From Thermoproteota archaeon (GTDB taxonomy: Archaea > Asgardarchaeota > Jordiarchaeia > Jordiarchaeales > Freyrarchaeaceae), in NCBI GenBank assembly GCA_029258835.1, contig JAPDJY010000039.1:99615-163614 (forward strand): a stretch of 64,000 bases of DNA, written 5' to 3'. Under the pieces are notes generated by a model that searched no databases, had not been told where the DNA came from, and was given only the letters and a program-made list of their open reading frames with translations. The translations under genes and the position numbers were made by a program. Shown here piece by piece: positions 33,170 to 37,504 of the stretch. How positions within the stretch are numbered: position 1 is the first letter of the stretch; every line of letters begins with the position of its first letter.

Positions 33170-34198
33170 CTAGAAACGTGAAACAATTATCTTTCGAGTC
33201 AAACTTTTATGAACTCTGATATAATATATTTCAACTATCCGGAGGCCATGTGAAGCCATAACGTCCTCTATGTTTATTACTGAAGGGGAAGCTATGCAGA
33301 ACCATCCGTCTTTCCTTAGAAAGGAAACAGCGGAGGAGAGGAAGTCCCGTATAAGCACGTCAGGTGGAGATCCCTTAGTTGACGAGGCGCGGCCGTAAGG
33401 GGGGTCTGTTACCACACGGTCTACACGGGATAAAAAGGGATCACGCGCATCCGCTAAAACTAATTCGCTAGGAACGCCATAATACTTGAGGTTTCTTTTA
33501 GCTCCGAGGAGAACATTCCGGTCTAGGTCACACCCCACAACTCGGCATCCTATGAGAGCGGCTTCGATCAGTATGCTTCCAGCACCACAAAAGGGGTCTA
33601 ATAGAATATGGTGACGAGATGCCCGAGCCAAGTTAACCATTGCCCTAGCAAGGTAGGGATTCATGGATGATGGTGTGAAAAAGGGGCGAAACCTAGGTAG
33701 ACGTGCTCTAAGCGTTCTTCTAATAGAACTGCCAATGTATAAGCCAAGGAGGAAGCATCCCTCTGAGAGTACTCCCAACAGCAACTTATTCGGGGATTTT
33801 AGGTCCACCTTTGCCCCAGTGACTTCTCTCACATGCCTGCCTATGACACGCTCAAGCATTAGCCTGTTAATACTGAGAGAGTGCTGCTTAACACGTTTTA
33901 CCCTCACAGCGAAGGTATCGGATGCAGAAATGAACATGGGTAGGTTAGAAATGTGAATGCTTTCAATTATTTCATCGATGCAGGCTGGCGACTTTGCTAG
34001 GAGCAAGCAGCCACAATGACACAAAGCTGCACGTTTTAAAATTAGATTGGCAGCGGCGTAGTCCGTTTTCACTATAAAAACTTGGTCCAACACCGAGTAG
34101 TTAAAAGTAAAGCTGCCGCTTTCAAGAATGGCCTTGCATTCAGCAGAAGGTAGTAAGGAATGCTCACCTGATAGTAGAAAGAAAAACGATGCCTTCAA
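33170..34198 (-). CDS. tRNA m2G10 methyltransferase (THUMP + MTase, Trm11/TrmG10)
   Basis: LLSGEH, RPFFTPSSM, LDPFCGAGS, TDPPYGR. Confidence 0.9.
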   Translation of the reverse strand: MKASFFFLLSGEHSLLPSAECKAILESGSFTFNYSVLDQVFIVKTDYAAANLILKRAALCHCGCLLLAKSPACIDEIIESIHISNLPMFISASDTFAVRVKRVKQHSLSINRLMLERVIGRHVREVTGAKVDLKSPNKLLLGVLSEGCFLLGLYIGSSIRRTLRARLPRFRPFFTPSSMNPYLARAMVNLARASRHHILLDPFCGAGSILIEAALIGCRVVGCDLDRNVLLGAKRNLKYYGVPSELVLADARDPFLSRVDRVVTDPPYGRASSTKGSPPDVLIRDFLSSAVSFLRKDGWFCIASPSVINIEDVMASHGLRIVEIYYIRVHKSLTRKIIVSRF

Positions 34199-35100
34199 CT
34201 TTCCAATGCCCCAGCAATAAGAGGTGCTAGGGATATTAGACTGACATCACTGGGTACGCTATCTGTTCCCACGAGGCTCCTTGCACCGGCGTTAAATATT
34301 TTGAGGCGGGCGTCGCCTATCAGAAGTGGATGAACGCATGCGACGTGAACAGCCCTTGCCCCCTGTTTAACAGCCATTGAAATGGCGTTCACCACCGTGC
34401 CACCAGTACTTATTATGTCATCTACTATGATCACATCGCTTCCAGACACGTCTATATGCTTTTCCTTAGTGACGATCTCTCCAGTATACTTGTCTCTGTG
34501 CTTCTCAAGGAACACGAAGTTGCAGTCTAAAATCCTTGCAACAGCCTCCCCCTCTTTACAGGCTCCTTCATCGGGTGCTAAAACTATTGGGTTCTTCAGA
34601 GAAAAAGACTTAAAATGCTCTCCAATTAAAGGAGCTGCATTTAAATCAACAAATGGAACATTCAATCCATCGAAAACACGCGTATTATGAATGTTAACGG
34701 TTATCACCTTATTTACACCGCAATCACATAGCATACGGCAGATATATCTTCCACTAACAGCTTCTCCAGGCAAAAACGCTTTATCTTGGCGAGCATAAGC
34801 AAGGTAAGGAATAACGGCGGTAACACTATTAGCTCCCTGATCAATCACTCCGTTGACTAATAGGAAGAGTTCGATTAGATTTGAGTCCTGAGGAGGAGGC
34901 GTTGACTGAACAACGATCACATCGCAGCCCTCCACCGAGTCAAGTAACCTAACATAAAGTTCGCCATCAGGGAATCTCTTAAAGGATACAGGTACAAGTT
35001 TTAACCCGAGAAGACGGGAGATCTTAACCGTTAAAAGCTGGGAAGCTGAGCCAGCTACAAGCACCATATTGTCCAAGTTACTCATAGAAAAACCCTCCAT
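34195..35100 (-). CDS. prs: Ribose-phosphate pyrophosphokinase
   Basis: RFPDGE, PYLAYARQD, APDEG, IVDDIISTGGT. Confidence 0.95.
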   Translation of the reverse strand: MEGFSMSNLDNMVLVAGSASQLLTVKISRLLGLKLVPVSFKRFPDGELYVRLLDSVEGCDVIVVQSTPPPQDSNLIELFLLVNGVIDQGANSVTAVIPYLAYARQDKAFLPGEAVSGRYICRMLCDCGVNKVITVNIHNTRVFDGLNVPFVDLNAAPLIGEHFKSFSLKNPIVLAPDEGACKEGEAVARILDCNFVFLEKHRDKYTGEIVTKEKHIDVSGSDVIIVDDIISTGGTVVNAISMAVKQGARAVHVACVHPLLIGDARLKIFNAGARSLVGTDSVPSDVSLISLAPLIAGALES

Positions 35101-35315: not shown

Positions 35316-36344
35316 ATGATAAGAGAGGCGCGTTTTTACGAGGTTAAAGGCGAGGGGGACGTCGTCTGTCTCTTATGCCCTAACAAATGTTTTATTAAAA
35401 ATGGGAAGCGGGGGAGCTGTGGTGTTAGGGAAAACAGGGAGGGAACGCTTTACACGTTAATTTATGGATCAGTGTCCTCGATGGCGGTTGACCCGATAGA
35501 GAAAAAGCCGCTTTTCCATTTCTGGCCAGGAAGCGACATATTTTCGATAGCTACTGTTGGGTGCAATCTTCATTGCATGCACTGCCAGAACTGGCACATA
35601 TCTCAAGTGTCTATTGAAAGCGGGTTAACGAGAGATATATTACCGGAGGAGATAATTAAGGCCGTCGAGGAAAGCGGCAGTAAGTCTATTGCATACACTT
35701 ATAACGAACCTTTCATATGGTATGAGTACGTTTACGATGTCGCAAAGCTAGCTCATAAGAAAGGGATACTAAACGTGCTGGTTACTAACGGTTATATTCT
35801 AGAGGAGCCATTAAGAGAAATAGCACCTTACATTGACGCTGCAAACGTCGATGTGAAGGCTATGCGTGACGAATTTTATAAAAAAATATGTAAAGTTTCA
35901 AGTGTGAAGCCAGTCCTAGAAACAGTAGTTATAATGAAGGAGTTGGGTATTCACGTCGAATTAACGTACCTAGTGATACCGACCCTCAATGATGATGAAG
36001 ATGAAATAAGAAAATTTGTAAGGTGGGTTAAAGAGGATGTAGACAGCGACACGCCAGTACACTTCTCAAGGTTTTACCCACATTATAAGTTAAGCGAGCT
36101 ACCCCCGACACCAGTTTCAACCATTATGAAAGCTCAGAAGATAGCGTTAGATGAGGGGCTTCATTATGTTTACGCAGGTAACGTTCCAGGGTACGGGGAA
36201 GACACGTACTGTCCACGGTGCGGCGAGAAGGTAGTTGAAAGGTACGGGTTTACTGTGAGAAAATGCAACCTAAGAGGCGGGAAGTGTCCTAAATGCGGAG
36301 AGACAATAGCGATAGTTGGAGAATGTAAGGAAACAGTATGGTAA
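35316..36344 (+). CDS. AmmeMemoRadiSam system radical SAM enzyme
   Basis: CLLCP, DPIEKKPLFHF, GCNLHCMHCQNW, AYTYNEP, HFSRFYP, YVYAGNV. Confidence 0.92.
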   Translation: MIREARFYEVKGEGDVVCLLCPNKCFIKNGKRGSCGVRENREGTLYTLIYGSVSSMAVDPIEKKPLFHFWPGSDIFSIATVGCNLHCMHCQNWHISQVSIESGLTRDILPEEIIKAVEESGSKSIAYTYNEPFIWYEYVYDVAKLAHKKGILNVLVTNGYILEEPLREIAPYIDAANVDVKAMRDEFYKKICKVSSVKPVLETVVIMKELGIHVELTYLVIPTLNDDEDEIRKFVRWVKEDVDSDTPVHFSRFYPHYKLSELPPTPVSTIMKAQKIALDEGLHYVYAGNVPGYGEDTYCPRCGEKVVERYGFTVRKCNLRGGKCPKCGETIAIVGECKETVW

Positions 36345-36358
36345 GGCGGCAACGTCAT

Positions 36359-37504
36359 TTAGCTAACTGGGCGCCAGACTAAACCCAGTTCATCAGCAAG
36401 CTGATAGGCTTTTTGCATCTCCTCGGGTGAAACACGGCGATTTATATCACGATAATTTTTGCTTTTAGGCACAAGATGTGTTGGATAATACTGAGACATT
36501 ACATTTACCAATGCTTTAGGACAGTTTTCAGCGATCCATTCTAAGACGGGGCGGGTGCAGCACTCAACATGTCCTGGCAGAACAAGGTGGCGAATTATCA
36601 TTCCAGAGGAGCCGTTAGCGACTGTTTGCTCGTATGCTAGCTTATGGTTCCGCGAGACAACTTCCCAGTAGTTTTTAACCTTGCTTAGCTTTTCGGCACA
36701 TTCATTATTGCCATACTTAAAGTCAGGCAACCAGAAATCCATGACATCTAATAAAAGCATCATGCATTCCTTAGAGCAGTACATGTTTGAGTTCCAAAGC
36801 TGAGGTATATTAACTCTAAGTTGCCTAATGGCGTCGAGGATTATCCACGTGGATGGAGTAGGGTCTCCGCCAACATAATTTATGTTTCGTGCACCCTCAC
36901 GCTTCAACGTTCTAGCTATGCTGGCCAGGTCGGCGGCAGTTACCTCTGCACCGTTCAGAGGATCCGTGCTTATATCGTGATTCTGACAGAAAACACAGGA
37001 AAAAGTGCAACTAGTGAAGAAGAATGCACCGCTGGACGTTCATCCAGCGATTGTGCCTGAGGGCACTAGGGGTGCTTCCTCACCCATGTGCAGAAACGCT
37101 GTGGAAACGTAAGCTTTAGCACCAAGTTTGCAGAAGCCAAGCTTACCTTCTAAACGGTTTACACCACACCTTCTTTCGCAAAAATGGCAGTTAACAAGGA
37201 TTCGCTTGGCAAGCTCTGCCTTTAGGTCAAGATAGGATGTTTGAGGTGTGTCAAGCTCGCCTAGCTCCACAGATCCTTGATCCACTTTCGTAAGGAGTCT
37301 ACGGAATTGCTTACTGGCACGTTCATGAACATTCCAAAGCATCTCGGTAGGAGAATTAAGGGGTACATCAATGTTTACCTTACTAGCTATTAAAAACTTT
37401 GCAGGCCGCTTATCGTTGAAAACGTCATAGTACCTTTTAAGCCGTTCTAAAACTACGTTATCACTCCACACTTTAAGCGAATCAGGTCTTACCACACGCC
37501 ACAT
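36359..37504 (-). CDS. PflX-like radical SAM protein, spliced: exon 1 37051-37504, exon 2 36359-37023, 372 aa
   Basis: CHFCERRCGVNR, HMGEEAPLVPSGT|IFFTSCTFSCVFCQNHDIS, NINYVGGDPTP, DFKYGN, IIRHLVLPGH. Confidence 0.9.
37024..37050 (-). other. Candidate BHB intron (27 nt) in the PflX-like radical SAM mRNA
   Basis: Minus strand: AG GCAC AA|T CGCTGGA-TGAACG-TCCAGCG GTGC AT|T CT; perfect GCAC/GTGC helix; in-frame TGA. Confidence 0.9.

What the first reader, a model, noticed from the sequence alone, without database searches (positions are those of the whole stretch)
36359..37504. PflX-like radical SAM gene with a 27-nt, stop-containing, near-perfect BHB intron just before the CxxxCxxC motif
The two ORF-track fragments share one frame and are separated by a TGA that sits at the start of the loop of a 7-bp hairpin. 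The structure AG GCAC AA|T [CGCTGGA TGAACG TCCAGCG] GTGC AT|T CT is a full hBHBh'. Removing it restores PSGTIFFTSCTFSCVFCQN. The insert is a multiple of 3, so the TGA alone makes splicing obligatory.
Basis: partly seen in the sequence, partly recalled or inferred. Interest (0 to 1): 0.84.

Follow-up and report, generated by a model that had tools for sequence, protein, structure and literature searches.

The report
tRNA-type intron in Asgard enzyme gene
A 27-base insert with a stop codon breaks the only PflX-like radical SAM gene of this Asgard (Jordarchaeia) archaeon; it has the shape cut by the tRNA-splicing enzyme and is kept at the same spot in all relatives found, so the mRNA is very probably spliced, which the papers I could search report for one archaeal coding gene (cbf5).

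Summary
The minus-strand gene at 36359-37504 carries a 27-nt insert (37024-37050) with an in-frame TGA. All 19 aligned orthologues lack it.

The insert folds as a bulge-helix-bulge (BHB): a GCAC/GUGC helix, two 3-nt bulges and an 8-bp inner hairpin. The outer exon helix has only 2 bp. Cutting after the second nucleotide of each bulge restores PSGTIFFTSC.

Main evidence:
- **Same-site inserts in relatives.** Eleven distinct Jordarchaeia sequences carry an insert here, of 27, 28, 31 or 34 nt. All but the window's shift the frame.
- **Conserved shape.** The BHB core is the same in all eleven, and the hairpin differs by compensatory changes.
- **Selection.** Both exons are under strong purifying selection.
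- **Machinery.** The genome encodes a crenarchaeal-type EndA alpha subunit with its specificity loop, a second non-catalytic paralogue, and RtcB.
- **Real in DNA.** DNA contigs from three studies carry the insert unchanged.

*Odinarchaeum* has a separate 29-nt BHB intron ten codons downstream.

No RNA read covers the junction, so splicing itself is inferred. The BHB motif alone is not enriched genome-wide.

This scan already noted the orthologous introns on other DNA. I found no published report. Verdict: a new member of a known kind (cbf5-type pre-mRNA intron).

The parts
37051..37504 (-). Exon 1 (454 nt) of the PflX-like radical SAM gene: N-terminal domain up to ...PSGT plus the first base of the Ile codon
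   Evidence: ORF and translation; aligned to 19 orthologues; the spliced ORF is 372 aa.
37024..37050 (-). 27-nt BHB intron, first base T (37050), last base T (37024)
   Evidence: Absent from all 19 orthologues. Same-site inserts of 28, 31 and 34 nt in relatives. Unchanged in DNA contigs of three studies.
36359..37023 (-). Exon 2 (665 nt including the stop codon): TC of the Ile codon, FFTSCTFSCVFCQN cluster motif and the rest of the radical SAM domain
   Evidence: Pfam PF04055 Radical_SAM 2.6e-13 and Fer4_12; alignment.
37053..37056 (-). Central helix H, exon strand GCAC (third base of the Gly codon plus AC of the Thr codon)
   Evidence: Pairs with 37026-37029; 100% paired in 11 sequences. Synonymous sites are frozen only in intron-bearing lineages.
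37026..37029 (-). Central helix H, intron strand GTGC
   Evidence: Invariant in all 11 distinct introns.
37050..37052 (-). Bulge 1 (AAT); predicted 5' cut between 37051 and 37050
   Evidence: A cut after the second bulge nucleotide is the rule stated in PMC2738675.
37023..37025 (-). Bulge 2 (ATT); predicted 3' cut between 37024 and 37023
   Evidence: The third bulge base T is invariant because it forms the Ile codon A|TC.
37030..37049 (-). Inner helix h': 8-bp hairpin (CGCTGGAT / GTCCAGCG) with loop GAAC
   Evidence: MFE fold; four pairs show compensatory changes across relatives.
37040..37042 (-). In-frame TGA inside the intron (T is the last base of the 5' arm, GA is in the loop)
37057..37058 (-). 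Outer helix h, 5' strand (AG), pairing with CT at 37021-37022; only 2 bp
   Evidence: G-C in 11 of 11; the second pair is A-U or G-U in 9 of 11.

Best explanation
The 27 nt at 37024-37050 are an archaeal bulge-helix-bulge (tRNA-type) intron inside a protein-coding gene.

Proposed mechanism, inferred rather than observed:
1. In the pre-mRNA, the exon bases GCAC pair with the intron bases GUGC to form the 4-bp central helix.
2. This helix is flanked by two 3-nt bulges and an 8-bp intron hairpin.
3. The splicing endonuclease EndA, here an alpha/beta two-subunit enzyme of the crenarchaeal broad-specificity type, cuts after the second nucleotide of each bulge.
4. RtcB joins ...GGCACAA to TCTTCTTC....

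The spliced mRNA encodes a 372-aa PflX-like radical SAM protein with an intact strand beta-1 and CxxxCxxC motif. Unspliced mRNA would end at the TGA after 154 residues, without the cluster motif.

The intron was gained before the Jordarchaeia (Freyarchaeia) lineages sampled here diverged and has been kept since.
For: 1. **Insert absent elsewhere.** It is missing from all 19 aligned orthologues, and its removal restores the invariant PSGTI-FF.
2. **Canonical BHB geometry.** It appears in the MFE fold, z = -3.7.
3. **Distribution.** All 10 Jordarchaeia species genomes in which the gene was found are interrupted at the same site; the gene was not found in G005. Three further metagenomic contigs add distinct inserts. 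None of the 29 other Asgard genomes searched has an insert at this site.
4. **Lengths.** The inserts are 27, 28, 31 or 34 nt. All but the window's shift the frame, so read-through cannot rescue them.
5. **Junction.** The only junction that gives T-I-F-F in every lineage is the cut after ACA A. This is the canonical BHB cut between bulge nucleotides 2 and 3 (rule from PMC2738675).
6. **Structure conservation.** 85.5% of cells are paired, against 33-59% for slid controls. H is 100% paired, 4 h' pairs have changes on both sides, and the covariation score is reached by 3 of 500 shuffles.
7. **Synonymous sites.** Gly GGC/GGT, Thr ACA and Ile ATC are fixed in the 11 intron-bearing sequences. The same codons vary freely in 17 loci that lack an insert at this site, and neighbouring codons vary in both sets.
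8. **Selection.** All 15 spliced ORFs are 372-375 aa. pS is 0.68-0.85 (saturated) and pN is 0.075-0.22.
9. **Single copy.** The gene occurs once in the genome.
10. **Machinery.**
   - The EndA alpha subunit is most similar to the *A. pernix* alpha subunit (3p1z_B, 4e-46) and keeps the equivalents of K44 and R46 of the specificity loop (PMC3241643).
   - A second EndA paralogue lacks the catalytic His.
   - RtcB is intact.
11. **Real in DNA.** DNA contigs of three studies, one from a strain about 1% divergent, carry the insert with no change.
12. **Other introns of this kind.**
   - ppsA in the same genome is split by a 19-nt BHB insert exactly between Pfam PPDK_N positions 113 and 114.
   - *Odinarchaeum* has an independent 29-nt BHB intron in this same gene.
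13. **Lineage.** The lineage is published as having introns in 92-95% of its tRNA genes (PMC11291895).
Against: - No RNA evidence exists for this junction. The single metatranscriptome contig found covers only 37326-37488.
- The outer helix h has only 2 bp, and 1 bp in two relatives.
- The BHB motif, alone or combined with ORF restoration, is not enriched over decoy pairing rules genome-wide. The motif therefore carries little weight by itself.
- The eleven sequences come from one clade, so the covariation and codon counts are not independent.
- The EndA subunit architecture and its activity on this substrate are inferred from sequence.
Confidence: 0.88

Rival explanations
1. The gene is a pseudogene: a 27-nt palindromic insertion with a stop codon inactivated it, and the BHB-like fold is coincidental.
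For: There is an in-frame TGA. BHB-like motifs of this strength occur about 100 times per genome by chance. No RNA evidence of removal exists.
Against: The interruption sits at the same site in 11 distinct sequences across at least three genera whose synonymous sites are saturated. No other lesion occurs in any copy, and pN is far below pS. The intron core is conserved although it is non-coding, with compensatory changes. The gene is single-copy and otherwise near-universal in the Asgard genomes searched.
Confidence: 0.03
2. The TGA is read through or recoded (for example as selenocysteine) and the nine extra residues stay in the protein.
For: In this genome the insert is a multiple of three. 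Relatives of this lineage are reported to have Sec machinery (PMC11291895).
Against: The codon lies in an insert that no orthologue has, so it aligns with no Cys or Sec position. In the ten other distinct sequences the insert is 28, 31 or 34 nt and shifts the frame, some with several stops. In the AlphaFold model of the read-through protein, residues 155-161 are the only segment with pLDDT below 50 and interrupt strand beta-1 just before the cluster loop.
Confidence: 0.03
3. Ribosomes bypass the insert by translational hopping, as in phage T4 gene 60: a take-off codon followed by a stop in a hairpin.
For: GGA is followed directly by TGA at the top of a stable hairpin, which superficially resembles the gene 60 arrangement (my own knowledge).
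Against: No landing codon matching the take-off codon would yield T-I-F-F. A GGA to GGT hop would leave four extra residues. The relatives have no in-frame stop after a comparable take-off codon, yet they keep the 4-bp helix and 3-nt bulges that only EndA recognition explains.
Confidence: 0.03
4. The gene is truly split and makes two polypeptides, an N-terminal domain and a radical SAM domain, that assemble.
For: Gene callers annotate two ORFs in every Jordarchaeia genome.
Against: In the window no ATG, GTG or TTG lies between the TGA and the CxxxCxxC motif. The next in-frame start gives a 182-aa product that lacks the cluster motif. The break falls inside strand beta-1. This model does not explain the conserved BHB geometry.
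Confidence: 0.03

Closest known systems
BHB intron in the cbf5 pre-mRNA of Crenarchaeota (Watanabe 2002; Yoshinari 2006; Yokobori 2009, PMC2738675)
   Same: A short bulge-helix-bulge intron inside a coding sequence. The predicted cuts lie between bulge nucleotides 2 and 3. The motif is relaxed, and the host has a hetero-oligomeric (alpha/beta) EndA. The intron sits next to catalytic residues and has been kept over a whole clade.
   Different: A different gene (PflX-like radical SAM rather than a pseudouridine synthase) and a different phylum (Asgard, Jordarchaeia). Splicing here has not been shown experimentally. The same genome holds further such introns: I checked ppsA and an HMPTM-like radical SAM gene, whereas published work confirms cbf5 as the only coding-region case.
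Non-canonical tRNA introns of Freyarchaeia/Jordarchaeia and Atabeyarchaeia (PMC11291895; bioRxiv 10.64898/2026.10.13.758758)
   Same: The same lineage, the same BHB motif, the same presumed EndA/RtcB machinery and similar small sizes. These introns were gained repeatedly at sites where a BHB can form.
   Different: Those are in tRNA genes. Neither paper mentions protein-coding introns in the passages I searched.
BHB intron in the 5' UTR of Haloferax volcanii HVO_1309 mRNA (Schwarz 2020, PMC7714728)
   Same: An mRNA processed by the tRNA splicing endonuclease at a BHB motif.
   Different: That intron is in the untranslated leader, so the reading frame does not depend on it. The host has a homodimeric EndA.
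29-nt BHB intron in the orthologous gene of Candidatus Odinarchaeum yellowstonii LCB_4 (L025:787-815)
   Same: The same gene family and the same motif type, only ten codons away and next to or inside the Fe-S cluster motif.
   Different: It has a different position (phase 0, between RCAY and CQN), a different sequence and a different class, so it is an independent gain. I found no publication on it.

Membership tests
Archaeal BHB intron (EndA substrate) | [quoted passage not shown] | tested here: met
   GCAC/GUGC with bulges AAU and AUU. Present in the MFE fold and in all 11 same-site introns.
Archaeal BHB intron (EndA substrate) | Flanking helices h' (intron side) and h (exon side) | tested here: inconclusive
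   h' is strong (8 bp, covarying). h has only 2 bp (G-C plus A-U), and 1 bp in L020 and L036. This is a relaxed motif of the kind accepted by alpha/beta EndAs according to PMC3241643.
Archaeal BHB intron (EndA substrate) | Cuts after the second nucleotide of each bulge give a functional product | tested here: met
   The junction ACA A|TC restores T-I-F-F as in 19 orthologues. It is the only junction valid in all lineages.
Archaeal BHB intron (EndA substrate) | Host encodes the splicing endonuclease and the RtcB ligase | tested here: met
   There are two PF01974 loci. The alpha subunit resembles 3p1z_B and has the specificity loop. The second paralogue lacks the catalytic His. RtcB scores 1.6e-182.
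Archaeal BHB intron (EndA substrate) | Intron removed at the RNA level (spliced junction or circular intron observed) | tested here: inconclusive
   Of 23 runs listed, one is RNA. Its single contig covers 37326-37488 only.
Radical SAM superfamily, PflX-like (COG1313-type) group | CxxxCxxC cluster motif and a Radical_SAM domain | tested here: met
   PF04055 at 2.6e-13 in exon 2. The CTFSCVFC motif is invariant in the alignment. Sources name the orthologues 'putative pyruvate formate lyase activating enzyme'.
Pyruvate formate-lyase activating enzyme PflA (TIGR02493 equivalog) | Score above the curated equivalog cut-off | tested here: not met
   29.6 bits against a cut-off of 231.75. This is not a true PflA, and the substrate is unknown.
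Selenocysteine UGA recoding | UGA aligned with Cys or Sec in orthologues | tested here: not met
   The codon lies in an insert absent from all orthologues. A SECIS element was not searched for.
Programmed translational bypass (T4 gene 60 type) | Matched take-off and landing codons that restore the conserved protein | tested here: not met
   No matching pair gives T-I-F-F in the window or its relatives.

The most novel reading that the evidence does not exclude
The intron may not be a neutral passenger. Two Asgard classes gained BHB introns independently within ten codons of each other in this gene. In this genome a second radical SAM gene is split inside its CxxxCxxC motif. Earlier notes of this scan report further Fe-S motifs split the same way. 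This pattern could mean one of two things: BHB introns are preferentially inserted or retained at Cys-codon-rich Fe-S motifs, or splicing by EndA/RtcB acts as an all-or-none checkpoint on the synthesis of Fe-S enzymes in the closest prokaryotic relatives of eukaryotes.
Probability: 0.12. Interest if true: 0.88.

Novelty: new member of a known kind. Interest (0 to 1): 0.72.

Why it matters
In the papers I could search, splicing of an archaeal coding sequence by the tRNA machinery is documented for one gene (cbf5, Crenarchaeota), plus one 5' UTR in *Haloferax*. [quoted passage not shown]

With the other split genes of this genome, it suggests that protein-enzyme mRNA splicing is routine in Jordarchaeia.

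Practically, every Jordarchaeia genome examined mis-annotates this gene as two fragments. Gene callers and metabolic reconstructions for these lineages therefore need an intron-aware step.

The locus also gives a compact test substrate of about 60 nt for EndA specificity. The clade-wide series of 27-34-nt variants of one intron can be used to study how such introns evolve.

Tried and rejected
1. **RNA evidence.** The look-up of sequencing runs listed 23 runs, one of them RNA. Laying X19 (RNA) gave a single 163-nt contig at 37326-37488 and nothing at the junction. It shows neither splicing nor its absence.
2. **Motif plus ORF scans of the genome.**
   - With L up to 160 nt: 66 real hits against 90 decoy hits.
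   - With L up to 45 nt: 128 real against 134 and 96 decoy.
   - Stricter ORF-flank filters gave no separation from decoy 1.
3. **Strict motif scan.** 135 real hits against 137 and 110 decoy hits. Altered bulge geometries gave similar counts. The motif cannot be used alone to count introns in this genome, and I make no claim about their total number.
4. **Candidate at window 34180-34203.** This is the overlap of the prs stop with the start of the next gene, not an intron.
5. **Splits of the orthologue in G029 and G024.** G029 has a single extra G, a plain frameshift. G024 is intact.
6. **Outer 6-bp helix.** The CUAGUG/CACUAG helix in the MFE fold is not conserved in relatives, so I do not count it as part of the motif.
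7. **RNA gene searches of the window.** Default ARAGORN and Rfam at gathering threshold found no RNA gene.
8. **Selenocysteine, translational bypass, split-protein and pseudogene readings.** These are treated under the rival explanations.

Full report
**What is in the sequence**

The gene lies on the minus strand at 36359-37504. Read straight through, it gives ...PSGTIAG*TSSGAFFFTSCTFSCVFCQN..., with the stop (TGA) at 37040-37042.

Around the stop, the minus strand reads:
- AG
- GCAC
- AAT
- an 8-bp hairpin (CGCTGGAT, loop GAAC, GTCCAGCG)
- GTGC
- ATT
- CT

RNAfold of 37005-37075 returns the GCAC/GUGC helix, the AAU bulge and the hairpin as its minimum-free-energy structure. The energy is -26.9 kcal/mol, z = -3.7, and none of 200 shuffles folds as well.

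The predicted cuts fall after the second nucleotide of each bulge. The intron is then 37024-37050 (27 nt), exon 1 is 37051-37504 and exon 2 is 36359-37023. The spliced ORF is 372 aa.

**Comparison with orthologues**

The read-through protein finds thousands of full-length relatives of 365-380 aa. The closest are Asgard proteins (Baldrarchaeia 66%, Odinarchaeia, Promethearchaeota), followed by Thermoproteota.

In an alignment with 19 of them, the nine codons are an insertion unique to the window. Every orthologue reads PSGT(I/V)F(F/L) without a gap. Removing the 27 nt gives PSGTIFFTSC.

**The same intron in relatives**

I searched 40 related genomes with the protein. The gene appeared as two adjacent hits breaking at residue ~153 in four genomes of the same family (G001-G004) and five of the same order (G006-G010). 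In G005 the gene was not found with this query. More distant Asgard genomes have an uninterrupted gene.

The DNA shows an insert directly after GGCACAA in every one of these genomes.

Fragments returned by a protein search are named Jordarchaeaceae and Jordarchaeum, which places the window's organism in Jordarchaeia. Their contigs added three more distinct inserts. One comes from a relative at 84% protein identity.

This gives eleven distinct same-site inserts:
- 27 nt: the window
- 28 nt: L030, L016, L031, L017, L018, L019
- 31 nt: L020, L021, L023
- 34 nt: L036

Only the window's insert is a multiple of three. All the others shift the frame, so neither read-through nor recoding can rescue them.

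**Junction and structure**

All eleven keep G(C/U)AC ... GUGC, 3-nt bulges (AAN and ANU) and closing CGC/GCG pairs. The body of the hairpin differs: CGCTGGAT/ATCCAGCG in the window's genus, CGCCAGAG/CTCTGGCG in the sister genus, and an offset AAGAG/CTCTT or GAGAGCC/GGCTC helix in the other family.

On the MAFFT alignment A2:
- 85.5% of cells pair, against 33-59% when the partners are slid.
- Helix H is paired in 100% of cells.
- Four h' pairs change on both sides.
- The covariation score is reached by 3 of 500 shuffles.

The eleven sequences belong to one clade, so these numbers support the reading but are not independent tests.

The junction can be pinned down by comparison. In the window three cut positions give the same product, and in the sister genus two do. 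The only position valid in both is after ACA A. This is the canonical BHB cut between bulge nucleotides 2 and 3, the rule stated for cbf5 (PMC2738675).

**Selection**

All 15 loci give complete spliced ORFs of 372-375 aa with no other lesion. Between lineages pS is 0.68-0.85 (saturated), while pN is 0.075-0.22. One pair gives dN/dS of about 0.04. This rules out a decaying pseudogene.

The exon bases that build the motif are frozen at synonymous sites only where the intron exists:
- Gly is GGC in 10 sequences and GGU in 1; both pair with G.
- Thr is ACA in 11 of 11.
- Ile is AUC in 11 of 11.

In 17 loci that lack an insert at this site, the same codons use all synonymous forms. The flanking Pro, Ser and Phe codons vary in both sets.

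**The insert is real DNA**

Logan contigs from three separate studies span 37016-37066 with no base change or indel. One of them comes from a strain about 1% divergent. No DNA contig lacks the insert.

**Machinery**

The genome has two PF01974 loci.
- The 190-aa protein is most similar to the catalytic alpha subunit of the *Aeropyrum pernix* heterotetramer (3p1z_B, 4e-46). It aligns without gaps through the Crenarchaea-specific loop, with Lys at the positions of K44 and R46. Those residues confer broad substrate specificity (PMC3241643).
- The second paralogue keeps the Tyr and Lys of the catalytic triad but has no His at the corresponding place. This fits a structural beta subunit, but it is an inference.
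- An intact RtcB lies at C1:78966-80273.

The lineage, called Freyarchaeia in PMC11291895, is published as having introns in 92-95% of its tRNA genes, often at non-canonical positions.

**Other introns**

*Odinarchaeum yellowstonii* LCB_4 (name) and two relatives carry a different 29-nt canonical BHB insert ten codons downstream. Its motif is GCGT, ATA, a 7-bp hairpin, ACGC, ACT. It splits RCAY|CQN inside the cluster motif, and splicing gives a 352-aa ORF. This is an independent gain in the same gene.

In the window's own genome, my scan recovered two more cases:
- A 19-nt BHB insert in ppsA (C1:87579-87597). Its two exons match Pfam PPDK_N positions 2-113 and 114-315.
- A 55-nt insert in an HMPTM-like radical SAM gene (C19:4619-4673), inside CNLRCP|ICF.

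**Limits**

The only RNA run that holds part of the locus does not reach the junction, so splicing itself is inferred.

Motif-based genome scans showed no enrichment over decoy pairing rules. A BHB-like fold alone is weak evidence. The case rests on the coincidence of the motif with the insert boundaries defined by orthologues, and on conservation.

The outer helix h has only 2 bp.

The AlphaFold model of the read-through protein (pLDDT 86.9) puts the insert (residues 155-161) in its only segment with pLDDT below 50, directly after strand 149-153. This fits an insert foreign to the fold, but it is weak evidence.

**Known or new**

The papers I could search describe one coding-region BHB intron (cbf5) and one 5' UTR case in *Haloferax*. 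The Asgard tRNA-intron papers do not mention protein genes in the passages I searched.

Earlier notes of this scan had already described the orthologous 28- and 31-nt introns in other Jordarchaeia genomes, the *Odinarchaeum* intron, and a set of mRNA mini-introns in this genome. I re-derived the first two, and the ppsA case, independently.

Verdict: a new member of a known kind, well supported by comparative evidence and still awaiting RNA proof.

Noticed in passing
L025:787-815 (G011, Candidatus Odinarchaeum yellowstonii LCB_4); also L026:770-798 and L027:776-804: An independent 29-nt canonical BHB insert in the orthologous gene, phase 0. It splits the cluster motif between RCAY and CQN, and the H helix varies by wobble-preserving changes. 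The fragment is annotated as a hypothetical protein.
   Followed up: yes
G000 contig C1:87579-87597 (about 12 kb before the window start); locus L041:580-598: A 19-nt BHB insert in the PEP synthase gene. The two exons match Pfam PPDK_N positions 2-113 and 114-315, so they are exactly contiguous after removal.
   Followed up: yes
G000 contig C19:4619-4673 (minus strand); locus L040: A 55-nt BHB insert with bulges AAA and AAT and an 8-bp hairpin, inside the CNLRCP|ICF cluster motif of an HMPTM-like radical SAM gene. Exon 1 holds the Zn-ribbon domain and exon 2 the Radical_SAM domain from model position 14.
   Followed up: partly
Default ARAGORN and Rfam at gathering threshold find no tRNA anywhere in the 64-kb window. 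This fits heavily interrupted tRNA genes that escape standard tools.
   Followed up: partly
L029 (G029:C9, about 33977-34029): The orthologue in this more distant Asgard genome is broken by one extra G in a G run (NVNW-G-VGGDP). This is a plain frameshift or sequencing error, not an intron.
   Followed up: yes
window 35316-36344 (+) and 36359 (-): An AmmeMemoRadiSam-system radical SAM gene (TIGR04337, 2.7e-109) converges on the PflX-like gene with only 14 nt between the two stop codons. The same pairing of neighbours is seen in several relatives' contigs.
   Followed up: no
whole genome G000: BHB motif hits, alone or with ORF restoration, are no more frequent than with decoy pairing rules. Motif-only intron finders would be dominated by false positives in this genome.
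   Followed up: yes
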